20,000 nucleotides of DNA. It comes from an uncultured virus (IMG/VR IMGVR_UViG_3300032093_000107) (lineage: Duplodnaviria; Heunggongvirae; Uroviricota; Caudoviricetes). The stretch lies in the IMG/VR virus record IMGVR_UViG_3300032093_000107. One strand, written 5' to 3'. The position numbers and the translations under genes are program-made. A model generated the notes under the pieces. The model was not told the origin of the DNA and ran no database searches. It worked only from the letters and a program-made list of their open reading frames with translations. Shown here one piece after another: positions 1 through 10,142 of the stretch; position 1 is the stretch's first letter; every line of letters starts with the position of its first letter.

Positions 1-1242
1 ATATTTAGGATTAACTAGAACTACTCGCCCTCCTTTCTCTTCGGCTTTATAAATCAATTGCCTTTTGAGTTCCCCAATCCCCTGATCTAAAATAGATTTG
101 TTTAGTCCTGATTTAGCAGAAGCTCCATTATGGGCATAAGTGCCATCCTCATTTTCCTTTACTCCTGCTCGCTTGGTCATGTTTTTAAGCTTTAAATCCT
201 CCATGGCAATATGGGAATACTTCTGAGTCAATTTGTGGCTAACTTGATGTAGATACCCTGCCCGACGGTCTTTAATTTGTTCGTGAAGCAATGCTAATTT
301 TTCTTTGCTCTTAAGATAATTAGCCGAGCCTTTTTCTTGCCTTGCCATTTTTCTTTGTAAGTGAGCAATCTTTCTTTCTTTATTCCGATAGTAAGCTTTA
401 GTCTCAATATGCCTTCCCTCACTATCAGTGTAAAGATTGACACATCCTACATCAATTCCTATCTGTCTGTCGGAAGGAAAGTGCATAGGAACAGGGAGAT
501 TAATTGTAAGGTGCAAATAATAGCCAGATGCCTTTCTAACTATAGATGCCATTCTTACGTCGGATTCTTTTGATAGTCGATTGATATCGTCAATGACCAA
601 CAGCCCTATCTGCTTATTAAGAAATATCCCACTATCTCGAATTTTAATTAGAGTAGGATGCCCAACTATTAAGCTTTGTACTGAGTCTAACTTTCCTTTG
701 TACTTAGGGAATCCTCTGATGCCTTTTTTTGCAGTCTCAAACGCTTTTGAAATAACATAACGATAAAAGCACCCTCTGAACTCCGATCCAATCTCAAATA
801 TTTTATCAGCTAAATCAGGATAAAAATATTTTTTAAGAGCCTCCTTATCAGGGGGTTTAGTTGTGTGCTTTTTAGCGTCAGGATTGCCTAGATATGGACG
901 TTTTTTCCTTTCCTCTAACTTAAGCAAAACGTATTCCTTTTTGTTTTTTAGATAAGCTATTTTGCAGCAAGGATTCCCTACCAATAGTTTTGTCTTGTCC
1001 TTGGGTAGTTTTTCGATATGAGGGAAGCTTGAATACAGACTAAGATAAGAAGTTTCCCAAAACTCAGGGGAAAACTCCTTAAACTCAAACTTATCCCTTA
1101 GTCGTCTTTGGTTAACTTCCTCTTGTAATCCTACGGCTAAATTCCAAAGATACTTCAATAGGCGCATCTTTTCGTCAATTAATGACTGCTGCTCCTCGGT
1201 TAGGGTTAGCCTAAATTTAACTACCCTTGTCATATTTTCCAT
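1..1242 (-). CDS. TnpB-family RuvC RNA-guided nuclease resembling CRISPR type V-U2 effector C2c8 (3' end outside the window)
   Basis: Hand-translated, 414 codons open from ATG 1242 (RBS GAGGACAAC) to base 1. Reads MENMTRVVKFRLTLTEEQQSLIDEKMRLLKYLWNLAV...GIRGFPKYKG...RKASGYYLHLT...IGIDVG (RuvC-I)...HLQRKMARQEKGSANYLKSKEKLALLHEQI...IAMEDLKLKNM (RuvC-II)...AKSGLNKSILDQGIGELKRQLIYKAEEKGGRVVLVNPKY. Has a long N-terminal insertion (SPEFW...LLVGNPCCKIAY) that I recall from cyanobacterial C2c8 proteins. Confidence 0.9.
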   Translation of the reverse strand, partial: MENMTRVVKFRLTLTEEQQSLIDEKMRLLKYLWNLAVGLQEEVNQRRLRDKFEFKEFSPEFWETSYLSLYSSFPHIEKLPKDKTKLLVGNPCCKIAYLKNKKEYVLLKLEERKKRPYLGNPDAKKHTTKPPDKEALKKYFYPDLADKIFEIGSEFRGCFYRYVISKAFETAKKGIRGFPKYKGKLDSVQSLIVGHPTLIKIRDSGIFLNKQIGLLVIDDINRLSKESDVRMASIVRKASGYYLHLTINLPVPMHFPSDRQIGIDVGCVNLYTDSEGRHIETKAYYRNKERKIAHLQRKMARQEKGSANYLKSKEKLALLHEQIKDRRAGYLHQVSHKLTQKYSHIAMEDLKLKNMTKRAGVKENEDGTYAHNGASAKSGLNKSILDQGIGELKRQLIYKAEEKGGRVVLVNPKY

Positions 1243-1265
1243 GTTGTCCTCATTTTTTAATTGAA

Positions 1266-1526
1266 TTATTCGACACCGTGCCACCTGATGCACAAAGTGG
1301 ATGGGTCAATTACTTTTACTGGCTTATCCCATTGATCTAAAAACTTTTCTAGATTCCAATCGTAGTTCAAAGCGTATTCCTCAATTGTGGCTTTTTCCTT
1401 TTCCCAATACGCCTCCCTGTCCCATTGCTCTTTAGCGAAGGAAGCTAATTCTATAGAATCAAATACCCCGACAGTGATTTTATCCTCGCACTCTCCTGCC
1501 GTCACGATGTAGATAGTTTTAATCAT
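1266..1526 (-). CDS. Phage hypothetical protein (86 aa; DUF7336-like 'IYIV..GE......GVF.S.E.A' pattern)
   Basis: ORF track 1266..1562. Start moved to ATG 1526 (MIKTIYIV) behind an AGGGGG RBS, overlapping the upstream stop. Confidence 0.65.
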   Translation of the reverse strand: MIKTIYIVTAGECEDKITVGVFDSIELASFAKEQWDREAYWEKEKATIEEYALNYDWNLEKFLDQWDKPVKVIDPSTLCIRWHGVE

Positions 1527-1773
1527 TATGCCCCCTTGTCCACGCATCAAATACCGTACCACAGCGAGGACATTCGATCTCCTCTTCTAGTTCCTTGACC
1601 TTACTTTTTAGTTTTCGATTCTCATCGGACAGAAGTTCAATTAATTGGTCTTTGTTTAGAGCTTGCTGCTCTAGCTTTTTTACGCGATCATCAATTACCG
1701 CGACTCGTTCTATTTGCCGTGTTAGTGCTTCATAAATAGAAGCTATTTCACTAAATTGGTTTTCATGGCTCAT
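1519..1773 (-). CDS. Hypothetical coiled-coil protein with C-terminal CPRCG motif (84 aa)
   Basis: ORF track 1519..1812. Start moved to ATG 1773 (MSHENQ) behind AGGAGG. Confidence 0.65.
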   Translation of the reverse strand: MSHENQFSEIASIYEALTRQIERVAVIDDRVKKLEQQALNKDQLIELLSDENRKLKSKVKELEEEIECPRCGTVFDAWTRGHND

Positions 1774-1823
1774 TTTTGTTTCCTCCTGTTTGTTTAATGG
1801 GGATGACGGCATCCCATAACTGA

Positions 1824-4136
1824 CTAAGCTAAATCTAGTAGGCTTAACTGCTCACATTTACCTTGATGCTCTGCCAGTCTCAAGTTTTGCTTGGCACATT
1901 CAAAGTACGAGCCTTTTAATTCAATTCCTATGAATTTACGTTTCTGTTCAAGGCTAACATAGCCTTCAGTGCCAATTCCTAGAAAGGGTGAAAAGACAAT
2001 TTCCCCAGGCATTGACCAAAGCTGTAAGCCACGGCGGACTACATCGAGTTGTAATGGACAAATATGCTTAAGATCGTCGTCGTCTTTGCCTTCACGGAAG
2101 TTAAGAGTATCGTTTTGACGGATATCCATCCAAATAGGACTGGCGTATCTTTGCCAGATTTCAATCGACTTGCTATTAGGATCTGAAGAAAATGGGAGTG
2201 TATTTTCGCCATAATATTCCGTCAATATTCCCTCCACTGGAACTTTATTTACCCCTGGCTTACGGAAAGTGATTAGATAGTCAGCAAGCCCCGCTCCTGA
2301 CATGGCGGAATCTTTTTTAAGTTGCTTGTGAAGAAGTGAGATCGCTTTTGTCCGTTGCATCGCAACTACGGGATCTTTCCAGATTGTCACTCTTGAATGA
2401 AAATAGAAGCCAGCATGTTCCATCAATCGGACTATCTGACAAGAGAAGTCTTTTAATCCTATATACCCATCCCATGCCTTAGTAGCTAACAGGTCTTGGC
2501 AATGGATGCTAACTAATCGCCCAGGTTTAATAATCCTGAATAGCTGTTCAGAAAGATAATTGTAATGTTCCCCGAATTGTTCCTCAGATGTCACATTGCC
2601 CATATCTCTGTCACTATCCGTATAAACGAATAGATTGCTAAATGGCGGACTAAATACCGAGTAGTCAATCCAATTATCAGGAATAGATTTGATGACCTCG
2701 CAACTGTCACCACGGAAGATGTTAAAATCATCCCCATGGCATTCATCTATTACTCTGATTTCCTCTTTGGGCTGGAATAGTTTAGGAGTCATGATTACCT
2801 CTGGATTATATCCGTTATTGCGTTTATCCTCTTGAACTGCTTTCATGTGTGCAGTAATTTCACGTTGCATTGTTTCAAAATCTTTTTGTTTCCTTTTTAG
2901 GTTTGCTAATACCCGTCCCTCAGTGTCAACGCAAATCATATAAGAATTGACTCGGCTTTTTTGCCCATACCTCCAACACCGCCTGATTGATTGATAGACC
3001 ATCTCAAACGAGTTGTTTAGCCCAACAAATACGATATTATGGCAGTTTTGGAAGTTAAGACCAAATCCAAAAATACTTGGCTTAGACACCAATACCCTGA
3101 TGTGACCCTCCGCAAAGTCAATGGCACTATTGGACTTGTGATCCTCCTTATCGCTTCCTCTTACCTCTACGGCTCCATTAAGAGCTTTTTTTAGTGCTTC
3201 TGATTCGGCATTCAAATCACAAAAGACTAACCATTGCTCATCTGAATTATTGACAAGTTTGGCTACTTCTGCGACTCTCAATGCTAATGTGGACTTTTTG
3301 GCTTCACGTTGTTCGGTCACTCCCGTGGCTTCCATCGTGAATATCTCCCCATCCCTCGTAATGCCTGAGATTACCTTTATTTCATGCTGATAGAGTGGAG
3401 GCAATTCAAATCCATCGCCATTAAAACCTAAATCAGCAGGAGATTGGAGCATACAAGACCACTGAGTTAGCCACTCCCAGAAAGCAACCTTGCCATATTT
3501 TTTGAGAGTCCATAATTTCTCAGCCATAGCCGCCTTGCCGTCTCTGACAAAGAAGGTGGCAAGCATTTCAGCCTGTAGCATCACTCCTAGGAACTCCGCA
3601 TGGTTGCCTAGTTCCGTGTAGTCGTTAGGGGACGGGGTGGCCGAGCAGCAAAGCCGATACTCAGTACGGGAAAACTGCTCGATTAATAGCTGTTTTGTAG
3701 TCCCTGAGAAACTTTTCAAAATTGAACTTTCATCTAGGACGATACCCGAAAAGATGGAAGTATCAAAGTTCCCCAATCTTTCATAGTTTGTGACGTTAAT
3801 TCCATCCGTCACATCCTCGCCCGATAGGCAGTAGGTCACAGGGATACCCCACTTGACTGATTCGGTGTTAGCAGTCTGACGGGCAACCCCTAAAGGAGCC
3901 AAGATTAATATGGGCTTTCCTGTATGCTTCACAACGCAATCAGCCCATACCAACTGCATCAGGGATTTTCCTAATCCAGTGTTAGCGAATACAGCAAACC
4001 GCCCCTTAGCTAAAGCCATCCTTACTATATGCTCTTGATAGTCGAATAGGCTAGGATGTAGCCATTCGCTAGGAACATCAAAGCCCACTGGCTCTAAAGT
4101 CTTTGTCTTGCTGTCTATAAAATCTAGATAATCCAT
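1824..4136 (-). CDS. SF2/SNF2-like helicase fused to an N4-C/N6-A DNA methyltransferase
   Basis: N-terminal Walker A ANTGLGKS, LDESS, SATPSPND, GFGLNFQ and QSIRRCWRYGQ. C-terminal FSPPF (motif IV) precedes VFSPFLGIGTEG (motif I) and FIGIELK, i.e. beta-class order. Confidence 0.9.
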   Translation of the reverse strand: MDYLDFIDSKTKTLEPVGFDVPSEWLHPSLFDYQEHIVRMALAKGRFAVFANTGLGKSLMQLVWADCVVKHTGKPILILAPLGVARQTANTESVKWGIPVTYCLSGEDVTDGINVTNYERLGNFDTSIFSGIVLDESSILKSFSGTTKQLLIEQFSRTEYRLCCSATPSPNDYTELGNHAEFLGVMLQAEMLATFFVRDGKAAMAEKLWTLKKYGKVAFWEWLTQWSCMLQSPADLGFNGDGFELPPLYQHEIKVISGITRDGEIFTMEATGVTEQREAKKSTLALRVAEVAKLVNNSDEQWLVFCDLNAESEALKKALNGAVEVRGSDKEDHKSNSAIDFAEGHIRVLVSKPSIFGFGLNFQNCHNIVFVGLNNSFEMVYQSIRRCWRYGQKSRVNSYMICVDTEGRVLANLKRKQKDFETMQREITAHMKAVQEDKRNNGYNPEVIMTPKLFQPKEEIRVIDECHGDDFNIFRGDSCEVIKSIPDNWIDYSVFSPPFSNLFVYTDSDRDMGNVTSEEQFGEHYNYLSEQLFRIIKPGRLVSIHCQDLLATKAWDGYIGLKDFSCQIVRLMEHAGFYFHSRVTIWKDPVVAMQRTKAISLLHKQLKKDSAMSGAGLADYLITFRKPGVNKVPVEGILTEYYGENTLPFSSDPNSKSIEIWQRYASPIWMDIRQNDTLNFREGKDDDDLKHICPLQLDVVRRGLQLWSMPGEIVFSPFLGIGTEGYVSLEQKRKFIGIELKGSYFECAKQNLRLAEHQGKCEQLSLLDLA

Positions 4137-4160
4137 AAGCCCTCAAATGTTTGTAAATTA

Positions 4161-4203
4161 ATCATCCCACCTATCCAATAAACTGTCATCTGTATAAATA
4201 CGG
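4161..4203 (-). promoter_or_regulatory. Repeated phage promoter, copy A (drives the helicase-MTase operon)
   Basis: Minus strand reads CCGTATTTATACAG-ATGACA-17 bp-(TGG)GATGAT, followed by ...GAGGGCTTATG at 4136. Confidence 0.75.
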
Positions 4204-4235
4204 ATATCCTATTCGTTCATTAAAGCTTAGGATTT

Positions 4236-4278
4236 AAGTATATTTACTGATGACAATTAGGCTAGGCTATGGGATATT
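4236..4278 (+). promoter_or_regulatory. Repeated phage promoter, copy B
   Basis: AAGTATATTTACTG-ATGACA(4250-4255)-17 bp-(TGG)GATATT(4273-4278), with RBS GAGGAC downstream. Confidence 0.8.
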
Positions 4279-4306
4279 AAAGATACAAACTTTTGAGGAC
4301 AGCTTA

Positions 4307-4627
4307 ATGACCGCTTCTAATTCTCGCTCTAATCTTTCTTTCCTAAAAAAAGCCATTGGGCTAAAATCCAAGGCTACAAAGTCTCAGACTTCTAAATGGG
4401 TTCTGGATGCTGTCTATCGGCTCCAGAACCAATACTCCGAAATTGCTTACGGCATTGCCCATGCTGACCAGACAGCGCGGATTGATGGTCAGATGTCCCT
4501 AGGACTTAGAAATATGCCAGCATCCACAATGGCAACTTTAATTGTAGCCATTCACTCCGCAGGGATTGAGTTATCGGGGGATGTCAGCGCGTGGCTGTGG
4601 CAGAACAGAGATTTGATAGTCTCTTGA
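4307..4627 (+). CDS. Hypothetical cassette protein (106 aa)
   Basis: The ORF track start at 4250 lies inside the promoter. ATG 4307 (MTASNS) follows GAGGAC, and the gene has its own terminator. Confidence 0.75.
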   Translation: MTASNSRSNLSFLKKAIGLKSKATKSQTSKWVLDAVYRLQNQYSEIAYGIAHADQTARIDGQMSLGLRNMPASTMATLIVAIHSAGIELSGDVSAWLWQNRDLIVS

Positions 4628-4649
4628 CTTATCCCTGTTTCAATCTTTG

Positions 4650-4669
4650 GAGCCGAAAGGCTCTTTTTT
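4650..4669 (+). terminator. Intrinsic terminator
   Basis: GAGCC-GAAA-GGCTC followed by TTTTTT. Confidence 0.85.
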
Positions 4670-4693
4670 ATTGCCCATATCTTTTTTTAATGC

Positions 4694-5221
4694 CTATATC
4701 CTTTTTAGGGCATCCTCTATCAATCTCTGATATTCAAGCACGATAGAGTCTTGAGTTAAAGTCCCGTCTGCATTTAGCCCGATATAGTTCCGTTTCTGGC
4801 TAAATCTATTAGTTCCCTGATTGGCTATTTTCCTCCCAATCAAGAAAGCGATCGCGCGAATCCTCTTAGGGTCTGTCTCTCCTAATTTCACCTCTACCCA
4901 CTCCCTTAGCGGTTCTAGTGGGGGAAACTTACCCTCACCCCTACCGACCACTCGATAAAGTGCCGCAGTAGTGCGATTTACTATCGACGCTCCTATCTCA
5001 AATCCGATAGTAGACTTCCTAGGGGCGATAATGTCCCACCCTTCGGCTAATGATGGCTTACCCTTCCTCTTGGAAGCACCCACGTAGGACCCGCTCTCTA
5101 ATTCGCTTGCCAAGTCTAGGAGTAGGTCAATAAAAATGTCATAAAGCTCTCGCTTGAGGATATCGGACTTAATCAACCCTGGGTTTGTGGTTACTTTTAA
5201 TCGGAGATCGGCTTTAGGCAT
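4694..5221 (-). CDS. Putative neck/tail-completion (HK97 gp10-like) virion morphogenesis protein
   Basis: The motif GRGEGKFPPLEPLREWVEVK...AFLIGRKIANQGT is typical of phage neck proteins. Start moved to ATG 5221 (MPKADL) because the upstream extension overlaps promoter copy C. Confidence 0.6.
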   Translation of the reverse strand: MPKADLRLKVTTNPGLIKSDILKRELYDIFIDLLLDLASELESGSYVGASKRKGKPSLAEGWDIIAPRKSTIGFEIGASIVNRTTAALYRVVGRGEGKFPPLEPLREWVEVKLGETDPKRIRAIAFLIGRKIANQGTNRFSQKRNYIGLNADGTLTQDSIVLEYQRLIEDALKRI

Positions 5222-5266
5222 GGTCTTAAAGGGATTTATCCTAATTCTAGCCAATCTAAAAAAGTT

Positions 5267-5309
5267 CAGTATATTTACTGATGACAAATAAATTGGACTA
5301 TGGGATATT
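5267..5309 (+). promoter_or_regulatory. Repeated phage promoter, copy C
   Basis: CAGTATATTTACTG-ATGACA(5281-5286)-17 bp-(TGG)GATATT(5304-5309), leader AAACAAACACAGAGGACAAAC. Confidence 0.85.
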
Positions 5310-5342
5310 AAGAGTATAGAAACAAACACAGAGGACAAACAC

Positions 5343-5546
5343 ATGGAAGCTTATATTTTATTAACAGGACCGCTAGAAGGAACAATTGTTGACCCATCTG
5401 GGCTATGGCTTTCCTACCATGAGGTAGAAGATGAGTACACCGAAGAGGAAATTAACTCTTGGCAGGATCGCCCCGCTACTCAGCACGAACTGAGTCTGTG
5501 TCCACCGCAATACCTAGAAGCGATCGGGCTTAAGTGGCGACACTAA
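5343..5546 (+). CDS. Small acidic hypothetical protein (67 aa), anti-defence candidate
   Basis: ORF with own promoter and strong RBS; 13 D/E versus 3 K/R. Confidence 0.75.
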   Translation: MEAYILLTGPLEGTIVDPSGLWLSYHEVEDEYTEEEINSWQDRPATQHELSLCPPQYLEAIGLKWRH

Positions 5547-5564
5547 ACCAAAACATCAAGCAAA

Positions 5565-5590
5565 GCCCCGCAAGGGGCAATTAAACCACA
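5565..5590 (+). repeat. GNRA hairpin element, copy 1
   Basis: GCCCC-GCAA-GGGGC-AATTAAACCACA, identical to 6054-6079. Confidence 0.85.
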
Positions 5591-5653
5591 ATCACATGCT
5601 AGGTTAGGAGCCATAAAACTTTTTTTATTGCCTATCCCCACCCTAAAAAAGTT

Positions 5654-5696
5654 CCGTATATTTACTGATGACAAATTAATTGAACTATGGGATATT
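5654..5696 (+). promoter_or_regulatory. Repeated phage promoter, copy D
   Basis: CCGTATATTTACTG-ATGACA(5668-5673)-17 bp-(TGG)GATATT(5691-5696), leader AAACAAACACAGAGGACAAAACG. Confidence 0.85.
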
Positions 5697-5727
5697 AAGG
5701 ATATAAACAAACACAGAGGACAAAACG

Positions 5728-6036
5728 ATGACCAGTAAATTAAAAGGATTAGCTACAGAATCAGAAAACTTTACTAAGTTTGCAAGCAATGGGCTATACG
5801 AAGGAACAATAAACAAGGTCTACATTAAAAAAGGTAACGATTTACTATTTGGATTTTATGCCCATTGTGGCTATTTTATCAGAATTGAAGATGGAAAAGG
5901 CAACTTAGTCAGAGAGCATTGGCTTAATGACGAACCTGATATGACGGACCCCACACTCCCTATCTATCCCCCCGTTGCCGACATAAGCACATTCGCACTA
6001 TTTGGGTACGAACTCAGAGAACTCACCTTTAACTAA
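5728..6036 (+). CDS. Hypothetical cassette protein (102 aa)
   Basis: ORF directly after promoter D and the RBS GAGGAC. Confidence 0.75.
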   Translation: MTSKLKGLATESENFTKFASNGLYEGTINKVYIKKGNDLLFGFYAHCGYFIRIEDGKGNLVREHWLNDEPDMTDPTLPIYPPVADISTFALFGYELRELTFN

Positions 6037-6053
6037 TCCCCGACTAGCAGCAA

Positions 6054-6079
6054 GCCCCGCAAGGGGCAATTAAACCACA
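6054..6079 (+). repeat. GNRA hairpin element, copy 2
   Basis: GCCCCGCAAGGGGCAATTAAACCACA, identical to 5565-5590. Confidence 0.85.
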
Positions 6080-6107
6080 TCAACCATAAACATAGAGGAC
6101 AAACATC

Positions 6108-6674
6108 ATGGCTACTTACGAATTAACTCAGCAGCAATTCATCGCATTTTTAGAATACACTTGGAACACTCATTTAGATTGGTACGATAATCTATTTCAT
6201 TCTATCCTCGCTTATGAGGAAAGCCGTACTTTCTCCGAGGGATGGCAATATTGTAAATCCAGCTTAACTATTAGCCTCCAAGCTCCCGACAAATATACCA
6301 AAAGATGGGAGTACGTCACAACTAGCGGGACGGAACTCAAGGTTATAAATTGCGATTATGACAACATCGGAGACGTTTATGAGGTAACGATCCCCGACCA
6401 TCGAAATCAGCCTGGGCGCACTGCCTATACTAATATGCAAGCCGTCCTAGCAGGCCACGCCTTTTGGTGGTGGTCGGAACAGCAAGACGAAAGCAACCCC
6501 GATGCCCTAGCTGCGGCAGCTTTCTTCCAGGGGGTGACAGTAGAGGAACTCATAGCAACTCGCAAAAAAGAAAAGGAAGAGTCGGCAATCCGTCAAGAAG
6601 AAAGCCGACAACAGTTGAATAGCAATGACGATTCCGACTGGGACGATTTTGGAGATGTCATAGAAGAGGAATAA
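6108..6674 (+). CDS. Acidic hypothetical protein (188 aa) with acidic C-terminal tail
   Basis: RBS AGAGGACAAACATC-ATG; tail NDDSDWDDFGDVIEEE; second gene of cassette D. Confidence 0.8.
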   Translation: MATYELTQQQFIAFLEYTWNTHLDWYDNLFHSILAYEESRTFSEGWQYCKSSLTISLQAPDKYTKRWEYVTTSGTELKVINCDYDNIGDVYEVTIPDHRNQPGRTAYTNMQAVLAGHAFWWWSEQQDESNPDALAAAAFFQGVTVEELIATRKKEKEESAIRQEESRQQLNSNDDSDWDDFGDVIEEE

Positions 6675-6692
6675 TCCTTATTCCCCACCATT

Positions 6693-6714
6693 AGAGCCAT
6701 AAGGCTCTTTTTTT
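6693..6714 (+). terminator. Intrinsic terminator
   Basis: AGAGCC-ATAA-GGCTCT followed by a T-tract; related to the 4650 terminator. Confidence 0.85.
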
Positions 6715-6718
6715 GTGG

Positions 6719-6859
6719 CTACCCTTCGGCGTGGGGGGCAGCCATTAGATAAATAGCCACGGACAAAAGGGAAGATACTGGAGCACCTGCCATGGCAAAG
6801 ATTGAACAGGACAACATCAGAAGACTAAAACAGGTAAGGGGGTAAGATTTGAGCTTCAT
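6719..6859 (-). CDS. Putative small membrane peptide (46 aa)
   Basis: Hand-translated MKLKSYPLTCFSLLMLSCSIFAMAGAPVSSLLSVAIYLMAAPHAEG. It fills the gap between two cassettes but has no clear RBS. Confidence 0.4.
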   Translation of the reverse strand: MKLKSYPLTCFSLLMLSCSIFAMAGAPVSSLLSVAIYLMAAPHAEG

Positions 6860-6928
6860 GGGGTGGGTAAATAGTATTTCTAAAATATCAGCCCCTATTT
6901 TGGGTTTTCTGATAATCGGTTAAAAGTC

Positions 6929-6971
6929 CCGTATATTTACTGACACAAAGATTACAAAAGGATGCTATATT
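6929..6971 (+). promoter_or_regulatory. Repeated phage promoter, copy E (drives the CRISPR-like RNA)
   Basis: CCGTATATTTACTG (6929-6942), diverged -35, then TGC-TATATT (6966-6971) at the same palindrome-to -10 spacing as the other copies. No GAGGAC RBS follows. Confidence 0.75.
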
Positions 6972-7006
6972 AAAGACATCAAAAATTTTTAACCAAGTTT
7001 TATTTT

Positions 7007-7105
7007 GTTCCGATCCACTCTCCACTAATCCCTGTAAGGGATTGAAACTATGTTATGTAGTCTTGAGAGTGCCCCATTTTTTAATCCCTGTAAGGGAACT
7101 TAAAG
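7007..7105 (+). CRISPR. CRISPR mini-array / crRNA-like element: two type I-D-like repeats and one short spacer
   Basis: Repeat 1 is GTTCCGATCCACTCTCCACTAATCCCTGTAAGGGATTGAAAC (7007-7048). Spacer is TATGTTATGTAGTCTTGAGA (7049-7068). Degenerate repeat 2 is GTGCCCCATTTTTTAATCCCTGTAAGGGAACTTAAAG (7069-7105). The 16-nt core TAATCCCTGTAAGGGA is identical at 7026 and 7082. Confidence 0.8.
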
Positions 7106-7132
7106 CCGCCAATACCCATAAGGCGGTTTTTT
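7102..7132 (+). terminator. Intrinsic terminator of the CRISPR-like RNA
   Basis: AAAGCCGCC-(11 nt loop)-GGCGGTTTTTT. Confidence 0.75.
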
Positions 7133-7160
7133 GGTATCTAGAGCCAATCCCTAAAAAGTT

Positions 7161-7203
7161 CCGTATATTTACGGATGACAATTAAGGGTAGGCATGAGAT
7201 ATT
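7161..7203 (+). promoter_or_regulatory. Repeated phage promoter, copy F
   Basis: CCGTATATTTACGG-ATGACA(7175-7180)-17 bp-(TGA)GATATT(7198-7203), leader AAACAAACCACAGAGGAAAC. Confidence 0.85.
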
Positions 7204-7239
7204 AAGGATATAGAAACAAACCACAGAGGAAACAACGCC

Positions 7240-7506
7240 ATGACTCCTTTAAAATTTGCTAAAAAACTAACTGAATTATCCGATTACAATATCTTGCCAT
7301 CGCAGGTTAAGCTTTGGAATTGTCATTACGCTGGAGATGATCACCTGACAGAGAAACTAGCCATTGAAATTGCCAATCAGTGGCGTGAAGAAGATCCCGA
7401 TGAGGTTGGAGATCCATACGGATTGCTCGAAATCCAAAGCCTACATCTAGAAAGCATTTTTGAGGAGTCGATAGTCAGAAGAGAGCCAGTTCCTTGGAGT
7501 CGATAG
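7240..7506 (+). CDS. Small acidic hypothetical protein (88 aa), anti-defence candidate
   Basis: Own promoter, RBS and terminator; 17 D/E versus 9 K/R. Confidence 0.75.
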   Translation: MTPLKFAKKLTELSDYNILPSQVKLWNCHYAGDDHLTEKLAIEIANQWREEDPDEVGDPYGLLEIQSLHLESIFEESIVRREPVPWSR

Positions 7507-7556
7507 CACCCCGCCCTGAGCATGGCACTAAAAGGCTTTTGATTTTTTTGCTCATA

Positions 7557-7587
7557 AGGTGGGATAGAAGTATCCCCCTCTTTTTTT
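7557..7587 (+). terminator. Intrinsic terminator
   Basis: GGGATA-GAAG-TATCCC stem with a downstream T7 tract, between convergent genes. Confidence 0.65.
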
Positions 7588-7589
7588 GC

Positions 7590-7784
7590 CTATCCATCAA
7601 GGAAGAAAGTTTTAGGTTTAGTGTCATGAGTCACGATTAAACCTTTTTCCGTTAAATCCTTGAGGTAGGACGCGATTATATTGGGGTAGCAGTCAATCTC
7701 AGCATCTATCTGGTCAATCGTCACTGGCTCGCATTGGGTAGCCAGAAAAGATAAAATCTTAACACCTATCGGGAGTCGGTTCAT
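7590..7784 (-). CDS. Small winged-helix DNA-binding protein (64 aa)
   Basis: KILSFL...PVTIDQIDAEI...IIASYLKDLTEKGLIV...PKTFF wHTH pattern. Start ATG 7784 overlaps the upstream TGA (ATGA coupling). Confidence 0.7.
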   Translation of the reverse strand: MNRLPIGVKILSFLATQCEPVTIDQIDAEIDCYPNIIASYLKDLTEKGLIVTHDTKPKTFFLDG

Positions 7785-7939
7785 TGTGAGAGCTTCCACA
7801 GGAGAAAGGATATATAAAAGGTAAGAAGAACCAATATCAGGAGAGCTTGAATCAGCCCTAACCAAAAATCAGCCCGATCCTGCCTTTCCTGTTCTTTGAT
7901 TTTCCGTCTGGTTTTTAGATTTAGTTTAAAATTGTCCAT
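7781..7939 (-). CDS. Small single-pass membrane protein (52 aa)
   Basis: Hand-translated MDNFKLNLKTRRKIKEQERQDRADFWLGLIQALLILVLLTFYISFLLWKLSQ, overlapping both neighbours. Confidence 0.6.
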   Translation of the reverse strand: MDNFKLNLKTRRKIKEQERQDRADFWLGLIQALLILVLLTFYISFLLWKLSQ

Positions 7940-8139
7940 TGGTGATTGTTGTGTTTTGCTGTTGCTAGTTTTAGTTGAGATTGGAGTCCTTTAATTTCTT
8001 TGCCCTCTCCCCTATTGGTTCTTTTTTGGGCTTTATCTATTTGGTCTTTTAGGTAATTTAGATAGCGCTCGGTGGGAATATAGCCACAAATTCGACAGCG
8101 ATCATGGTCGAGCCCTGGGCAATCGTTAATGTGTTTCAC
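7921..8139 (-). CDS. Hypothetical protein with Cys/His cluster (CPGLDHDRCRICG)
   Basis: ORF track 7921..8184. Likely GTG start at 8139 behind GGGGGA. Confidence 0.55.
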   Translation of the reverse strand: MKHINDCPGLDHDRCRICGYIPTERYLNYLKDQIDKAQKRTNRGEGKEIKGLQSQLKLATAKHNNHQWTILN

Positions 8140-8863
8140 GTTCCCCCCAGTACGCAGCATCACGACACTCGGTAATCCAATCAATCGTGTCTTGGGGGAT
8201 ATTTTTAAGCTGGCTATAGCCCGATATAGATTTAATCTTATCCAAAAATCTAAGCAAAGCAGAGGGTGATATCGAGTAATGATGGGTGTACCGACGAGCT
8301 TTAAGATCCTTTTTATAAATTGCCCTCAGGATTACGACATGATCCACCTCTAGGATTTTTGCCACGGCACAAGCAGACCAATCGCCTAACTCCGCCCTTG
8401 CCGATCCTACGTGATGGTCTTTCCTTAAATCAGACAGCTTTTTCTCCGTAGCAAAAATTGATCGCTTAAGTTTTTTGGCAATTCTGGGGACGCTCCACAC
8501 CCCACACTTTTCTATTAAAAATTCAATATCATTGTCAGACCATGGAACTCGCGGAAATTTATTTTGCTTTAGATTTCCCGCTTTGACTTGTCCTCTGATA
8601 GAATCTCGTGATATCGAAAAATGATCCATTACAGCATTTACCCCATCTGAATCAAGGATTTTTTGCGCGATCGCCAAATTTTCTTTAGACCAATTAAACC
8701 GCGATTGCAATCTCGGAACGTGGGGGAATCGCTTGTATCGAAGCTGATTTATAGCAGATTCCGATTTGCCAATCATTTTCCCAATTTTCTGGCAGGAAAG
8801 CCCATTCAATAGCCATGATTCAATCTGATTTAATTGTTCCTGACTGTAAATTTTTGTTGTCAT
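8126..8863 (-). CDS. Multi-HTH DNA-binding protein
   Basis: Repeated HTH/homeodomain-like units (GLSCQKIGKMIGKSESAI; WSDNDIEFL...SVPRIAKKLKRS) and a C-terminal excisionase-like HTH (SACAVAKILEVDHVVILRAIYKKDLKA). Confidence 0.7.
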   Translation of the reverse strand: MTTKIYSQEQLNQIESWLLNGLSCQKIGKMIGKSESAINQLRYKRFPHVPRLQSRFNWSKENLAIAQKILDSDGVNAVMDHFSISRDSIRGQVKAGNLKQNKFPRVPWSDNDIEFLIEKCGVWSVPRIAKKLKRSIFATEKKLSDLRKDHHVGSARAELGDWSACAVAKILEVDHVVILRAIYKKDLKARRYTHHYSISPSALLRFLDKIKSISGYSQLKNIPQDTIDWITECRDAAYWGERETH

Positions 8864-9501
8864 GTTGCCATCTCCTTTTTTAGTTGATATTCAAATCGTT
8901 TAATTGCCTGTATCCTAGTGTCGTAATTTTCCGACATTGCCTGATGATCAACAGATTTAGGTATTGCAGGAATTTCAACAGCATAAGAGGTATGCTTGCG
9001 CGGTGGTCTGTTTTCTTCGTATCTAATACCAGAATCCCTCGAACATTCCACACAGCATTTATTGCATTTTCTTCGTAATGAAGCCTCTAGCCCATTGTAT
9101 CTGTGTTCCCTTTTGCAAAGTTGCCCGACAAAAAAACGATCATCAATTTCGTCTGTCAAAACAATTTTGTCTAGCTTTCGTCTGCTTTTATCTGTTAGCT
9201 TTTTGCACTCTACACAGCTTCTGGTCTGAGTGTTTTTTAGAGAGAATCCCGTTCCGTTATAGTCGTGATTCCTTCCACACAACCCGCCTAAAAAATGTTT
9301 TTCCCCCTTAAGTTTAGCCTCTTTACGATTGGCTATTATTTTGTCAACATATTTCTGATCTTTGCCATCCCGTCTTTTCTCGAATTTAGTTCGATTGTGA
9401 CAAAGAACACAACCGAAATTAGAAATATATCGCAAGTTTTGCCCATTCTCGTCTTGATGCCCTTTTGGACATGGTTTGCCTAGGTAGGTTTTAGCGGTCA
9501 T
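8860..9501 (-). CDS. Protein with three tandem putative Zn-binding G-x2-C-x3-H...C-x2-C repeats
   Basis: YLGKPCPKGH..GCVLC, FLGGLCGRNH..SCVEC, FVGQLCKREH..CCVEC. Start at ATG 9501 is coupled to an upstream TGA. Confidence 0.7.
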   Translation of the reverse strand: MTAKTYLGKPCPKGHQDENGQNLRYISNFGCVLCHNRTKFEKRRDGKDQKYVDKIIANRKEAKLKGEKHFLGGLCGRNHDYNGTGFSLKNTQTRSCVECKKLTDKSRRKLDKIVLTDEIDDRFFVGQLCKREHRYNGLEASLRRKCNKCCVECSRDSGIRYEENRPPRKHTSYAVEIPAIPKSVDHQAMSENYDTRIQAIKRFEYQLKKEMAT

Positions 9502-9656
9502 GGTTCTATTTCCCCCGACGCTATTTTCCAATCAGTTTCCCACGCCAGAATGATTTCGTCGTCCGATAAATTTAGCACCTCTTCGGGATTAGTTGCCTGC
9601 CATTTTAGCCAGGCTTTTCTGTTTTGCTCTAGCGTTGTAATTTCATTTGAATCCAT
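9498..9656 (-). CDS. Small acidic hypothetical protein (52 aa)
   Basis: Hand-translated MDSNEITTLEQNRKAWLKWQATNPEEVLNLSDDEIILAWETDWKIASGEIEP. Fills the gap between nblA and the Zn-repeat gene with overlaps. Confidence 0.6.
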   Translation of the reverse strand: MDSNEITTLEQNRKAWLKWQATNPEEVLNLSDDEIILAWETDWKIASGEIEP

Positions 9657-9840
9657 TGTCAAGTCCCCACTTTTCTTTAATTATCTGCTTGTAAAAAACA
9701 TCAAGATAAATCATCTTGATATACTCTTGGACGATTGTATCCTTAAGAATATCGGTAGGCAAAGTAGATGATTTTACCCTTAAAATTTCGAGCTTGAATT
9801 TCTGCTCTAAAGTTAGTTCCCCAAATTTAGAATCTGTCAT
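9643..9840 (-). CDS. nblA: Phycobilisome degradation protein NblA
   Basis: ELTLEQKF...YIKM....FYKQIIKEKWGL matches the NblA signature (ELSLEQQF...YQELLKHQWGL) in sequence and length. Confidence 0.85.
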   Translation of the reverse strand: MTDSKFGELTLEQKFKLEILRVKSSTLPTDILKDTIVQEYIKMIYLDVFYKQIIKEKWGLDNGFK

Positions 9841-10142
9841 TTTCCTAACACCTCATAATCGTGACATTCTAAACAAGAGCCAGTAGGATTGATGGCGCAT
9901 TTAAGTTGAGTCATTTTACTCCAATTGCGACAGGAGCGCATAACTTTTAACTCTTGAATCTCAAGTTTTGCTCTAAGTTCAAAGTTTTCATGATTAAGCT
10001 CATTGGCTTGCCGATGTGATAAAATCACGTCACGGTTACAATCGGCTGATATTCTGTCTAATTCTGTCTCATAATTCCGTTTTTGAGCAGATAGAATTAT
10101 CAAAAACAGAATTATTAAGCTCAATAAAATTAACACGATCAT
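9837..10142 (-). CDS. DUF6464-like protein with N-terminal membrane anchor
   Basis: C-terminal CRNW....LKCAINPTGSCLECHDYE cyanobacterial motif and a hydrophobic N-terminus. Confidence 0.7.
   Translation of the reverse strand: MIVLILLSLIILFLIILSAQKRNYETELDRISADCNRDVILSHRQANELNHENFELRAKLEIQELKVMRSCRNWSKMTQLKCAINPTGSCLECHDYEVLGK

What the first reader, a model, noticed from the sequence alone, without database searches (positions are those of the whole stretch)
1..1242. Unannotated TnpB-derived, C2c8 (type V-U2)-like nuclease embedded in a phage operon
Seen in sequence: RuvC-I (GIDVG) and RuvC-II (MEDL) acidic residues are intact, and there is a long N-terminal insertion relative to ordinary TnpB. 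Only 23 nt separate it from the upstream phage gene, and it uses the phage-type RBS GAGGACAAC, leaving no room for tnpA or an IS left end. It is the fourth gene downstream of promoter copy A. From memory, the segments LLVGNPCCKIAY and AKKGIRGFPKYKG resemble Microcystis/Cyanothece C2c8 proteins. Inference: a domesticated compact RNA-guided effector of the phage, probably with an array or omega-RNA just left of the window, co-regulated with the cassette island.
Basis: partly seen in the sequence, partly recalled or inferred. Interest (0 to 1): 0.75.

Follow-up and report, generated by a model that had tools for sequence, protein, structure and literature searches.

The report
Cyanophage mini-CRISPR nuclease with hidden tracrRNA
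The window's left end holds most of a small Cas12/TnpB-type nuclease gene of a freshwater cyanophage, and related contigs show that a CRISPR array follows it and that a guide-helper RNA seems to be written inside the gene's own tail, so it is a compact, still untested virus-borne CRISPR system.

Summary
Window 1-1242 (- strand) encodes residues 1-414 of a 548-aa TnpB/Cas12-like protein with intact RuvC-I and RuvC-II. It starts 23 nt after the upstream phage gene.

Contigs identical to the window supply the rest:
- a zinc finger, RuvC-III and a 93-aa tail

The best family is C2c8 (type V-U2), at 295 bits against a 350-bit cut-off. In the tree the protein sits on a long early branch of the C2c8-like clade, far from ordinary TnpB.

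A cyanophage V-U2 locus was already published (vB_AphaS-CL131, 30% identical), so the kind is known.
- The ORF tail holds a 22-bp anti-repeat, with one compensatory change between phage variants and suppressed synonymous change. This is a tracrRNA-over-ORF layout like Cas12n. CL131 and four genomic C2c8 loci lack it.
- Array alleles differ at the cas-proximal end and share distal spacers, yet no cas1/cas2 is seen.
- One spacer matches the phage's own tape-measure gene at 35 of 38 bases.
- The clade ends in a QLxL[F/W] motif resembling a sliding-clamp-binding motif.

Cleavage, tracrRNA, PAM and targets are all untested.

The parts
1..1242 (-). Codons 1-414 of the 548-aa effector gene (whole protein = P0272). 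Covers the N-terminal WED/REC-like part, RuvC-I and RuvC-II.
   Evidence: ORF and translation. Families. The full protein was found by exact cluster look-up on the 65.9-kb contig.
1243..1265 (-). 23-nt gap to the upstream gene. The RBS-like GAGGACAAC (1243-1251) lies directly before the ATG.
   Evidence: Sequence read.
769..1092 (-). Lineage-specific N-terminal insertion, about residues 51-158. It is absent from ordinary TnpB and poorly conserved even within the clade.
   Evidence: NF040570 aligns only from residue 165 to model position 82. Alignment A1. pLDDT is below 50 for 53-160 of the 550-aa relative.
451..453 (-). RuvC-I catalytic Asp, D264, in GIDVG.
   Evidence: The column is invariant in 17 clade members (D266 of P0002).
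199..201 (-). RuvC-II catalytic Glu, E348, in AMEDL.
   Evidence: The column is invariant (E350 of P0002).
1266..4136 (-). Three upstream genes of the same - strand run: a helicase-N6/N4 DNA methyltransferase fusion (1824-4136) and two small ORFs (1519-1812, 1266-1562).
   Evidence: ORFs. PHROG helicase/methyltransferase and Pfam N6_N4_Mtase, Helicase_C.
4161..4189 (-). Promoter-like site ATGACA-17-GATGAT upstream of the four-gene run. It is related to a promoter-like element repeated on the + strand.
   Evidence: Consensus match only; there are not more such sites than in shuffles.
1..1 (-). PLACEHOLDER COORDINATE: this feature lies OUTSIDE the window, 1-405 nt beyond base 1 (= L002 1136-1540; window position = 1136 minus L002 position). 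Rest of the ORF:
- zinc finger CFNC...CVSC (L002 1148-1216)
- RuvC-III NADENAAKNI (Asp at L002 1235-1237)
- 93-aa tail and stop.
   Evidence: L002 is 100% identical to the window over residues 37-414. ORF. Protein. C421/C424/C440/C443 and D450 are invariant.
1..1 (-). PLACEHOLDER COORDINATE: OUTSIDE the window, 127-337 nt beyond base 1 (= L002 1262-1472). Proposed tracrRNA-like scaffold overlapping the ORF tail. A sigma70-like TTGACA-17-TACGAT lies at L002 1259-1287. The anti-repeat is at L002 1438-1472, with its core at 1438-1459.
   Evidence: Anti-repeat. Duplex -39.7 kcal/mol against -22.1+-3.2 for shuffled repeats. Third-codon-position changes 4/71 here against 98/420 in the body, Fisher p=2.4e-4. 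Promoter-like site.
1..1 (-). PLACEHOLDER COORDINATE: OUTSIDE the window, 388-402 nt beyond base 1 (= L002 1523-1537). C-terminal QLTIW (QLTLF in the L003-type variant), a sliding-clamp-binding-like motif.
   Evidence: Literature note: PMC3971601.
1..1 (-). PLACEHOLDER COORDINATE: OUTSIDE the window, 474-1466 nt beyond base 1 (= L002 1609-2601). CRISPR array of 14 repeats of 36 nt (CCGACAAACGACTAGAGTTGTCTAGGCAGTTGAAGG) and 13 spacers of 34-43 nt, preceded by a 68-nt leader (L002 1541-1608).
   Evidence: Array alleles.

Best explanation
Window 1-1242 is the first three quarters of the effector gene of a minimal type V CRISPR-Cas locus carried by a freshwater siphovirus-like cyanophage.

The effector
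- It is 548 aa and is a divergent, early-branching member of the C2c8 (type V-U2)-like clade of TnpB descendants.
- It has an intact RuvC D-E-D triad and zinc finger, so it is most likely an active RNA-guided DNA nuclease (inferred).
- It is transcribed as the fourth gene of a helicase-methylase operon (inferred).

The RNAs
- The last 93 codons of the gene do double duty. The same DNA appears to encode a tracrRNA-like scaffold whose 22-nt anti-repeat pairs with the CRISPR repeats. The sequence and its evolution show this; expression is not shown.
- The guide would therefore be a tracrRNA:crRNA duplex, as in Cas12n and Cas12f.
- For the first repeat-spacer unit, the guide could even be a single cis-folded, omega-RNA-like transcript.

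The array
- It lies 68 nt after the stop codon.
- It gains or exchanges spacers at the cas-proximal end in natural populations.
- It probably directs the nuclease against competing related phages or other mobile DNA in the same host. This is inferred from one near-self protospacer in a tape-measure gene.

The tail
- The disordered tail ends in QLT[IL][WF], which I read as a sliding-clamp-binding motif tethering the nuclease to replicating DNA (inferred, about 55%).
For: Identity
- NCBIfam C2c8 is the best family for the full protein: 295.2 bits against 223.9 for guided_TnpB.
- Ordinary TnpBs score the other way round: 147 against 300.
- In the FastTree of 110 rows, the C2c8-like clade (85 rows) has 99% local support. 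The phage proteins plus P0142 are sister (98%) to the other 81. P0142 itself passes the cut-off at 447 bits.
- The fold is TnpB-like: Foldseek TM to target 0.74 for ISFba1 TnpB.
- The catalytic and zinc residues are invariant.

Array
- 14 repeats in three contigs identical to the window (L002, L008, L010), 12-13 repeats in the 93%-identical variant (L003, L009), and 6 repeats in L007.

tracrRNA
- All 6 loci carry the anti-repeat about 170 nt upstream of repeat 1.
- The duplex z-score is -7.8.
- There is one compensatory pair: repeat GACTAG with anti CTAGTA in the L002 type, against GGCTAG with CTAGCA in the L003 type.
- Nucleotide change is 7/213 in the tail against 137/1260 in the body, with no third-position excess.
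- The minimum-energy fold of the mRNA tail, leader and repeat 1 pairs the anti-repeat with repeat 1 (z=-2.46).

Spacer turnover
- L007 has 2 unique leader-side spacers plus spacers 10-12 of L002.
- A DNA contig of run X3 joins the leader directly to repeat 10.
- The L003-type arrays share no spacer with the L002 type.

Target
- L003 spacer 6 matches the tape-measure gene of L009 at 35 of 38 bases. The mismatches are at positions 4, 5 and 8, next to the repeat.

Phage context
- Portal, tail-fibre-like and tape-measure genes are present.
- The best isolated relatives of the portal and the methylase are Synechococcus siphophages.
- A cluster member is binned in a Microcystis MAG.

Clamp motif
- 11 of 13 long-tailed proteins against 0 of 88 short-tailed ones carry it.
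- 20 of 53 against 0 of 49 in the wider set.
- Codons differ among loci.
- Gomez et al. 2014 note a putative beta-binding motif at the C-terminus of cyanobacterial IS200/IS605 OrfB.
Against: - The C2c8 score is below the curated cut-off (295 < 350).
- No RNA ends, processing or cleavage are shown.
- The RNA-library contigs laid covered only parts of the array, and such libraries can contain DNA.
- The low divergence of the tail could partly reflect recombination between the two phage variants rather than RNA constraint. Only two DNA variants were available.
- The single compensatory pair could arise by conversion between inverted copies.
- The repeat also has its own 5-bp hairpin. CL131 and 4 of 4 canonical C2c8 loci with arrays have no anti-repeat, so a tracr-independent mode is possible.
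- No cas1/cas2/cas4 lies in the 20-kb window or in the two ORFs after the array, and spacer lengths vary from 34 to 43 nt.
- 27 of 28 distinct spacers have no credible match anywhere searched. The one match is to the phage's own kind.
- The clamp motif ends mostly in W rather than the canonical F/L, and it has never been tested.
Confidence: 0.72

Rival explanations
1. It is the same phage CRISPR-Cas locus, but guide use is tracr-independent, as is assumed for canonical V-U2. The crRNA's own repeat hairpin is the protein handle. The anti-repeat in the ORF tail then has another role: an RNase III site for pre-crRNA or cas-mRNA processing, an attenuator coupling cas and array expression, or an evolutionary leftover of the omega-RNA stem.
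For: - The repeat folds on its own into CTAGA-GTTG-TCTAG followed by GCAGTTGAAGG.
- Canonical C2c8 repeats show a comparable hairpin plus TTGAAAC and no anti-repeat.
- CL131 also has none.
- A 2024 review table lists V-U2 as crRNA-only, though uncharacterised (PMC11641405).
Against: - About 210 nt upstream of and including the anti-repeat show suppressed synonymous change. That fits a long scaffold RNA better than a bare pairing site.
- There is a compensatory change in the duplex.
- Cas12n offers a precedent for this layout.
Confidence: 0.15
2. The locus is not a defence or competition system. Either it is a decaying relic, or it is an RNA-guided device used on the phage's own or the host's DNA, for example for regulation, homing or recombination. 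In that reading the array varies through recombination rather than adaptation.
For: - No adaptation genes were seen.
- Spacer-repeat units are duplicated in L003 and L009.
- The only protospacer found is in the phage's own tape-measure gene, and the crRNA would be complementary to that gene's sense strand.
- The authors of the CL131 paper suggested a gene-regulatory role (PMC6293099).
Against: - The body of the gene is under strong purifying selection: 90 synonymous against 28 non-synonymous codon differences.
- The catalytic triad is intact.
- L007's two unique leader-side spacers are hard to obtain by deletion alone.
- The self-match has 3 mismatches clustered at the repeat-proximal end, where type V seeds lie (established knowledge for Cas12 and TnpB).
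Confidence: 0.08
3. It is an ordinary IS200/IS605 or IS607 tnpB that hopped into the phage, and the neighbouring array is unrelated to it.
For: - Pfam and NCBI name it OrfB/TnpB or transposase.
- TnpB copies do occur in many phages: 597 phage records matched the query.
Against: - Only 23 nt separate it from the upstream gene, and no tnpA is present.
- It scores far below the IS200 and IS607 equivalog cut-offs: 164 of 425 and 101 of 350.
- It branches inside the C2c8-like clade.
- Gene, anti-repeat and array travel together in all 6 loci, and the anti-repeat inside the gene matches the array's repeat.
Confidence: 0.02

Closest known systems
[quoted passage not shown]
   Same: - A cyanophage carries a TnpB-like C2c8-type gene followed by a same-strand array of 36-nt repeats with spacers of variable length.
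- No other cas genes are present, and the spacers are almost all orphan.
- It is the top hit among 50,697 phage records.
   Different: - Identity is only 30.4% over 82% of the protein.
- CL131 sits deep in the clade, whereas this phage lies on the early branch.
- The CL131 ORF stops about 22 aa after RuvC-III and lacks the tail and the QLxL[FW] motif.
- The repeat sequence is different and there is no anti-repeat. The paper reports no tracrRNA.
- The genomic neighbourhood differs: terminase and antirepressor there, helicase-methylase and tail genes here.
Canonical C2c8 / type V-U2 loci of cyanobacteria (NCBIfam NF038192; Shmakov et al. 2017, recalled and cited through PMC6293099)
   Same: - It is the best-scoring family, with an end-to-end alignment to model positions 1-456.
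- It falls in the same clade.
- The layout is cas gene followed by a downstream array on the same strand, and the repeat ends in a hairpin plus TTGAA-type 3' end.
- Many members share the long basic tail ending in QLxLW.
   Different: - It scores 295 against a cut-off of 350. The genomic members scored 361-591.
- It has a lineage-specific N-terminal insertion.
- It has a strong anti-repeat (z -7.8) that 4 of 4 genomic loci lack (z >= -1.7).
- It is encoded by a virus.
Cas12n (type V-N, formerly V-U4/C2c9), e.g. RdCas12n, PDB 9J09 (PMC12216341)
   Same: - It is the closest full-length solved relative by profile: 193 bits, covering 3-440 of 522 profile positions.
- It is a compact TnpB-like nuclease.
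[quoted passage not shown] That is the architecture proposed here.
   Different: - It belongs to a different clade and a different host range (Actinomycetota, per the paper).
- Its A-rich PAM and monomeric cleavage have been shown experimentally; nothing has been shown here.
- Membership of Cas12n was not tested beyond the profile hit.
ISDra2 / ISFba1 TnpB with omega (re)RNA (PDB 8EXA, 8H1J, 8IAZ)
   Same: - It has the same fold (TM to target 0.71-0.74), RuvC triad and zinc finger.
- The guide scaffold overlaps the 3' end of the gene. This is established for TnpB: I recall it, and PMC12216341 says so.
- The cis-fold of tail, leader and repeat 1 mimics a single omega RNA.
   Different: - There is no transposon context, no tnpA and no IS ends.
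- It has a multi-spacer array instead of one fixed guide.
- It has about 85 extra N-terminal residues and a 93-aa tail.
Transposon-CRISPR intermediates (TranC; LaTranC, PDB 9JFO/9JFQ) and the 'RNA splitting' model
   Same: The idea is that an omega-RNA stem split into anti-repeat and repeat. This locus still allows both the cis and the trans form.
   Different: - The sequence relation is weak: 76 bits, on the RuvC C-terminal part only.
- I saw the TranC work only as search listings and PDB titles. The model itself is recalled.

Membership tests
C2c8 / type V-U2 effector (NCBIfam NF038192) | Whole-protein HMM score at or above the curated cut-off of 350 bits | tested here: not met
   295.2 bits for the full 548-aa protein P0272. 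Close variants score 291-298. It is still the best-scoring family, and the alignment is end to end.
C2c8 / type V-U2 effector (NCBIfam NF038192) | Branches with C2c8 proteins rather than with transposon TnpB | tested here: met
   FastTree of 110 rows: the C2c8-like clade has 99% support, and the phage proteins plus P0142 (447 bits, above the cut-off) are sister to the rest. The root is arbitrary, support is local SH-like only, and only 25 canonical TnpBs were sampled.
C2c8 / type V-U2 effector (NCBIfam NF038192) | Adjacent CRISPR array and no other cas genes | tested here: met
   An array starts 68 nt after the stop codon in all 6 loci. No Cas1/2/4 hits appear in the window's ORFs or in the two ORFs after the array. 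The rest of the phage genome, at least 50 kb, was not seen.
Type V (Cas12) effector in general | Single split RuvC domain (D, E, D) with a zinc ribbon between RuvC-II and RuvC-III | tested here: met
   D264, E348 and D448, plus C419/C422/C438/C441 in P0272 numbering. These columns are invariant in alignment A1.
Type V (Cas12) effector in general | RNA-guided cleavage of PAM-flanked DNA | not testable with these tools
   Only one near-protospacer was found. Its 5' flank is ...GTACTT. That is too little to call a PAM.
IS200/IS605 or IS607 transposon TnpB | Score above the equivalog cut-offs; tnpA and/or IS ends; multiple mobile copies | tested here: not met
   IS200_TnpB scores 163.9 of 425 and IS607_TnpB 100.6 of 350. 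The 23-nt gap to the upstream gene leaves no room for tnpA. IS-end hairpins were not searched for systematically.
RNA-guided endonuclease TnpB family (NF040570, broad subfamily) | Score at or above 100 bits | tested here: met
   223.9 bits, residues 165-456.
tracrRNA-dependent miniature Cas12 (Cas12n/Cas12f-like guide architecture) | An anti-repeat complementary to the CRISPR repeat, next to or overlapping the cas gene, on the same strand | tested here: met
   A 22-bp duplex (one G:U) at -39.7 kcal/mol, against -22.1+-3.2 for shuffled repeats. One compensatory pair is seen, and the anti-repeat is present in 6 of 6 loci.
tracrRNA-dependent miniature Cas12 (Cas12n/Cas12f-like guide architecture) | The tracrRNA is expressed and is required for activity | not testable with these tools
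   The RNA-library contigs laid covered only parts of the array. No raw reads were available.
Bacterial sliding-clamp (DnaN) binding proteins | A QL[SD]LF-type pentapeptide in a disordered terminus | tested here: met
   The protein ends in QLTIW (window type) or QLTLF (L003 type). The tail has pLDDT below 50. The motif is enriched in long-tailed clade members. The consensus is recalled (Dalrymple 2001) and is used in PMC3971601.
Bacterial sliding-clamp (DnaN) binding proteins | Physical binding to the clamp's hydrophobic pocket | not testable with these tools
   No binding data exist. See Tried and rejected for the modelling attempt.

The most novel reading that the evidence does not exclude
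This phage lineage preserves a living intermediate between a TnpB omega RNA and a CRISPR system.
- The guide scaffold is still written inside the nuclease gene.
- The primary transcript of gene tail, leader and first repeat-spacer folds as one omega-like guide.
- The same anti-repeat also serves the downstream repeats in trans as a tracrRNA.
- The array grows at the gene-proximal end without any Cas1-Cas2 of its own, by a host-borrowed or non-canonical and imprecise mechanism (spacers of 34-43 nt).
- The nuclease is tethered by a C-terminal clamp-binding motif to replicating DNA, so that it preferentially destroys the replicating genomes of sibling phages co-infecting the same cyanobacterium.
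Probability: 0.2. Interest if true: 0.8.

Novelty: new variant of a known kind. Interest (0 to 1): 0.6.

Why it matters
- **Untested subtype.** Type V-U2 is the one original 'V-U' group still without an experimental characterisation or a Cas12 letter in the review I read (PMC11641405, table passage).
- **A practical test case.** This locus offers a compact (548 aa), catalytically intact member with an unusually explicit guide layout: anti-repeat, repeat, leader and natural spacer series. That makes a PAM screen and guide reconstruction straightforward, and it could yield a small editor.
- **Evolutionary interest.** Within one clade it places tracr-less loci beside a tracr-in-ORF locus. That bears on how omega RNAs became tracrRNA plus crRNA.
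- **Ecological interest.** It adds a second, independent cyanophage lineage carrying such a system. Population-level spacer turnover and a hint of phage-against-phage targeting are relevant to bloom-forming cyanobacteria.
- **A cheap hypothesis.** The clamp-binding-like tail shared by the clade could link TnpB/Cas12 action to replication, and it is cheap to test.

Tried and rejected
**Access and context**
- The window's own assembly is not held. The nearest record, G001, is a 12-kb fragment equal to window 4645-16643 and lacks the gene.
- Megablast of window 1-4200 against GenBank phages found no match.
- Handles for metagenome loci are not held, so the other roughly 50 kb of the 65.9-kb contig could not be read.

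**RNA families**
- An Rfam scan of the tail and array region found 0 matches at E<=1.

**Spacer targets**
- GenBank phages: none for the L002 array. For the L003 array there were only 27-nt hits at E=0.9, which I treat as chance.
- Local BLAST of 28 distinct spacers against all loci and the window gave only the L009 tape-measure match.
- Three exact scans of IMG/VR returned only the spacers themselves.
- 401 genomes of the order of a Cyanobium MAG gave 0 matches.
- 401 genomes sampled from the phylum gave 7 weak matches (E 1.5e-4 to 8e-3 per genome). On inspection these were partial matches of 21-25 nt in AT-rich sequence, so I treat them as chance.

**Repeat searches**
- The repeat 20-mer in 185,579 species genomes gave 0 hits. 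No host array with this repeat was found.
- In IMG/VR only the two known contigs carry it.

**Complex prediction**
- I modelled the last 45 residues with Synechocystis DnaN. The verdict was 'no answer': score 0.68, but one control scored 0.51. This is neither for nor against binding.

**RNA libraries**
- Contigs of two metatranscriptome runs lie on parts of the array only, and none lies on the cas gene. Contigs cannot show strand or ends, and DNA carry-over is possible, so this is not counted as expression evidence.

**Related loci**
- L016 (a Gloeomargaritaceae MAG) has an array right after a clade member, but no anti-repeat. Its repeat ends in CTGAAAC, so its link to the gene is unclear.
- L020's apparent array is a 12-nt coding tandem repeat, not a CRISPR.
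- Ten distant phage relatives found through the helicase-methylase carry no C2c8-like gene and no array within 8 kb. They are too distant (38-50% identity) to count as empty-site alleles.

**Promoters**
- Promoter and terminator scans did not find more sites than in shuffled sequence, so the named sites are leads only.

**Report form**
In 'parts' they now carry the placeholder 1-1, with their true distance and L002 coordinates in the text.
Full report
**1. The observation**

On the - strand an ORF starts at ATG 1242-1240 and runs off the left edge of the window, giving 414 codons. One search confirms the details:
- GIDVG is at residues 262-266, with D264 at window 451-453.
- AMEDL is at residues 346-350, with E348 at window 199-201.
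- The 23-nt gap TTCAATTAAAAAATGAGGACAAC lies between the TAA of the upstream ORF (1266-1562) and the ATG.

Pfam gives OrfB_IS605 at 1.3e-20. NCBIfam gives C2c8 at 271.9 bits for the window part alone, over model positions 1-442 of 457. The gene is the fourth in a - strand run behind a helicase-methyltransferase fusion (1824-4136) and two small ORFs. A promoter-like site lies at 4189-4161. It resembles an element repeated on the + strand at 4229, 5260, 5647, 6922 and 7154, and more weakly at 13319.

**2. What lies beyond the window**

The window's own assembly is not held. A search of IMG/VR with the protein found L002, which is 100% identical over residues 37-414 and continues 10 kb further, and L003, a 93%-identical variant. 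RC(window 1-36) equals L002 1100-1135, so window position = 1136 minus L002 position.

The ORF continues to L002 1540. It contains a zinc finger (CFNC...CVSC), RuvC-III (NADENAAKNI) and then a 93-residue tail. An exact cluster look-up gave the full 548-aa protein, P0272, on a 65.9-kb contig. Sixty-eight nucleotides after the stop codon comes a CRISPR array of 14 repeats of 36 nt and 13 spacers of 34-43 nt. A tape-measure gene of more than 2,500 codons follows.

A scan of metagenome contigs with a 20-mer from the repeat added four more loci:
- L007
- L008 and L010, which have the same array as L002
- L009, which is L003-like.

The window itself carries a portal gene, a tail-fibre-like gene and other phage genes. 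The nearest isolated relatives of the portal and the methylase are Synechococcus siphophages, at 25-49% identity. One member of the protein's 90% cluster is deposited in a Microcystis MAG as a 'transposase'. The element is therefore a freshwater cyanophage. The exact host is not established.

**3. Family placement**

The full-length protein scores as follows:

| Model | Score (bits) | Cut-off (bits) |
|---|---|---|
| C2c8 | 295.2 | 350 |
| guided_TnpB | 223.9 | 100 |
| IS200_TnpB | 163.9 | 425 |
| IS607_TnpB | 100.6 | 350 |

- Of 19 relatives scanned, 17 had C2c8 as the top family, and 12 of those were above the cut-off. Two ordinary TnpBs scored 147 for C2c8 against 300 for TnpB.
- A word-indexed search found only two close relatives, at 96% and 90% identity. 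The next hit is 44% identical over half the length.
- A profile search of 1.84 billion representatives found 45,722 relatives at E<=0.001.
- In a FastTree of 110 rows, the C2c8-like set of 85 rows is one clade (99% local support). The phage proteins plus P0142 are sister (98%) to the other 81. The rows were 3 phage variants, CL131, 7 cyanobacterial genome loci, 74 clade members and 25 canonical TnpBs. Members under 400 aa were left out. P0142 passes the C2c8 cut-off at 447 bits.
- Eight genome loci were found with the alignment, and 7 of them are named as cyanobacteria.
- The AlphaFold model is moderate (mean pLDDT 62). The insertion 53-160 and the tail 493-550 are below 50. Foldseek's best matches are TnpB and Cas12f-type structures, with TM to target 0.74 for ISFba1 TnpB.
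- By profile, the best full-length solved relative is 9J09, RdCas12n, at 193 bits.

My conclusion is that this is a divergent member of the C2c8-like radiation. It is not a canonical transposon TnpB, and it does not pass the curated C2c8 threshold.

**4. What is already known**

Sulcius et al. (PMC6293099; abstract and passages read) reported that cyanophage vB_AphaS-CL131 carries a putative V-U2 locus. It consists of a TnpB-like ORF061 and 10 spacers with 36-nt repeats. They found no tracrRNA, could not determine the array's direction, and found one weak spacer match.

CL131 is the best hit for this protein among 50,697 phage records, but identity is only 30.4% over 82%, and it sits deep in the clade, far from this lineage. 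Its ORF stops shortly after RuvC-III, and its locus has no anti-repeat. A phage-borne V-U2-like system is therefore not new as a kind. This is a second, independent and differently built case.

A 2024 review still lists V-U2/C2c8 without size, PAM or a Cas12 letter (PMC11641405). Altae-Tran et al. 2023 (PMC10691335, passages) define V-U6 to V-U45. I could not see their supplements, so this lineage may already have a label there.

**5. A tracrRNA-like element inside the ORF tail**

- In all 6 loci, a sequence about 170 nt upstream of repeat 1 and inside the ORF tail (L002 1438-1472) is complementary to the repeat over 22 nt, with one G:U pair.
- The duplex energy is -39.7 kcal/mol, against -22.1+-3.2 for 500 shuffled repeats with a minimum of -35.0. 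In a second test with the 27-nt conserved repeat core, z = -7.8.
- The two phage variants differ by a compensatory pair. L002 has repeat GACTAG with anti-repeat CTAGTA. In L003 most repeats are GGCTAG with anti-repeat CTAGCA.
- Comparing L002 with L003 codon by codon, the gene body (420 codons) has 90 synonymous and 28 non-synonymous codon differences, and 98 of 137 base changes fall at third positions. From RuvC-III to the end of the anti-repeat (71 codons) there are only 7 changes in 213 nt, 4 of them at third positions. Fisher p = 2.4e-4 for both comparisons.
- The 22 codons after the anti-repeat are the most variable, with 11 changes in 66 nt. The last 45 nt of the leader are conserved again.
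- The best sigma70-like match in the region, TTGACA-17-TACGAT, lies at L002 1259-1287, exactly where the conserved stretch begins. This is a consensus match only.
- The minimum-energy fold of tail, leader and repeat 1 pairs the anti-repeat with repeat 1 in cis (z = -2.46).
[quoted passage not shown] The layout proposed here therefore has a direct precedent in the neighbouring subtype.
- By contrast, four canonical C2c8 loci with downstream arrays in cyanobacterial genomes (L032-L035; repeats of 37 nt ending in TTGAAAC or CTGAAAG) show no anti-repeat (z between -1.7 and +0.5), and neither does CL131 (z +0.1).

Three caveats apply. Only two DNA variants were available. Recombination could mimic the constraint. 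No RNA ends are known.

**6. Array dynamics**

L002, L008 and L010 share 13 spacers. L007 has two unique spacers next to the leader, then spacers 10-12 of L002, then the same trailer. A DNA contig of run X3 joins the leader directly to repeat 10, skipping 660 nt with 36 nt ambiguous, which is one repeat. Run X1 breaks after repeat 1 but holds spacers 10-13.

The L003-type arrays share no spacer with the L002 type. L009 carries one more, duplicated, repeat-spacer unit than L003.

Shared distal spacers with divergent gene-proximal spacers are the usual signature of polarised acquisition. However, no cas1, cas2 or cas4 appears in the 26 ORFs scanned, and spacer length is loose. How spacers enter the array is therefore unexplained. 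Sixteen DNA runs hold about half of the stretch's sampled words.

**7. Targets**

Of 28 distinct spacers, one has a credible match. L003 spacer 6 (which is L009 spacer 7) matches L009's own tape-measure gene at 35 of 38 bases. The three mismatches are at spacer positions 4, 5 and 8, next to the repeat. The 5' flank is ...GTACTT, and the crRNA sense equals the gene's antisense strand.

In Cas12 and TnpB enzymes the seed is at the repeat-proximal end (established knowledge). This looks like a spacer taken from a sibling phage, or a former self-target that escaped by mutation. It fits phage-against-phage competition, but it is a single case. All other searches were empty or at chance level (see Tried and rejected).

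**8. The C-terminal motif**

Aligning 17 clade members showed variable, basic, low-complexity tails that end in a conserved [QE]Lx[LIV][WF]. The window's protein ends QLTIW, and the L003 type ends QLTLF.

| Protein set | Long tails (>=50 aa after RuvC-III) with strict motif in last 30 residues | Short tails with strict motif | Not classified (no RuvC-III pattern match) |
|---|---|---|---|
| 122 proteins in hand | 11 of 13 (the other two have ELDLW) | 0 of 88 | 21 |
| 146 representatives from the profile search | 20 of 53 (29 of 53 with a looser pattern; several more show QLxLxLW) | 0 of 49 | 44, of which 5 have the motif |

- Outside the last 30 residues the motif occurs 3 times in 71,878 residues.
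- Codons for the motif differ among five loci, which argues for selection on the protein.
- The pattern matches the bacterial sliding-clamp-binding consensus QL[SD]LF (recalled).
- Gomez et al. [quoted passage not shown] They did not list that peptide among those they assayed.
- A search for TnpB or Cas12 together with 'sliding clamp' or 'clamp-binding motif' listed no paper whose title or abstract makes this link for CRISPR effectors (listing only).

The reading is plausible and cheap to test, but it remains unproven.

**9. Mechanism proposed, with what is shown and what is inferred**

- Shown by sequence: the gene, its intact catalytic residues, the array, the anti-repeat with one covarying pair, nucleotide-level conservation of the tail, array alleles that differ at the gene-proximal end, and one near-self protospacer.
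- Inferred:
  - transcription with the helicase-methylase operon
  - a tracrRNA made from the ORF tail
  - a tracrRNA:crRNA-guided DNA nuclease acting on competing mobile DNA
  - clamp tethering through the tail.
- Unknown: the PAM, RNA processing, the route of spacer acquisition, and the host.

**10. Verdict**

The system belongs to a known kind, the phage-borne V-U2-like CRISPR-Cas, but it is a distinct variant. It sits on an early branch, scores below the family threshold, and has a Cas12n-like tracr-in-ORF layout that canonical V-U2 loci and CL131 lack. I score interest at 0.6.

Noticed in passing
window 4229-4292, 5260-5323, 5647-5710, 6922-6985, 7154-7217 (+), weaker 13319-13351; minus-strand relative about 4158-4201: A promoter-like element of about 64 nt is repeated (GTATATTTACTGATGACAA - about 17 nt - GGGATATTAAG, i.e. 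ATGACA/GATATT hexamers). It stands in front of short + strand ORFs, and in diverged form in front of the - strand helicase-methylase operon.
   Followed up: partly
window 5563-5590 and 6052-6079; 4647-4669 and 6691-6713: Two pairs of repeated GC-hairpin plus T-run sequences (AAGCCCCGCAAGGGGC...; GGAGCCGAAAGGCTCTTTTTT) stand at the ends of the small + strand cassettes. They look like intrinsic terminators.
   Followed up: no
window 10139-10480 (-): A small ORF has weak HicA-toxin-like matches: PHROG 353 'toxin' at 7e-10, and Pfam HicA_toxin at 19.6 bits, below its cut-off. It overlaps the ORF at 10363-10755.
   Followed up: no
window 19049-19249 / 19541-19741 and 19722-19997 (-): There are long internal direct repeats: 201 nt at 72% identity, and a tandem of 138 nt at 94% identity. 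They lie inside the tail-fibre-like gene 18580-19950, which has Phage tail repeat-like matches.
   Followed up: no
L003 976-1594 vs window 1519-1812: Between the methylase and the 98-aa gene, the 93%-identical phage variant has two different small ORFs (90 aa and 117 aa, the latter Cys-rich). The window has one 97-aa coiled-coil-like ORF in that place. This is a small cassette swap directly upstream of the cas gene.
   Followed up: no
L009 (native) 5972-6009, inside ORF 3852-9419 (-): The tape-measure gene of the L003-type phage holds a 35/38 match to a spacer of that phage's own array. The mismatches are at the repeat-proximal positions 4, 5 and 8.
   Followed up: partly
L032-L035 (cyanobacterial genomes G737, G723, G627, G606): Canonical C2c8 genes (492-591 bits) are followed at 150-820 nt by arrays of 37-nt repeats ending in ATTGAAAC or ACTGAAAG. 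No anti-repeat is detectable. L035's protein ends in QLTIWD, like the phage's sister P0142.
   Followed up: partly
L004 (CL131) 5484-5540: In the gap between the CL131 effector gene and its array, a copy of the repeat's 3' end (AGTTGGCAAG) is followed by a short hairpin that ends in CTTGCCA. This may be a remnant of an omega-like stem. No long anti-repeat is present.
   Followed up: no
L020 15757-16500: A distant phage relative has a tandem repeat of 12-nt period, about 42 units, inside a 489-aa ORF. A simple k-mer screen mistook it for a CRISPR array.
   Followed up: yes
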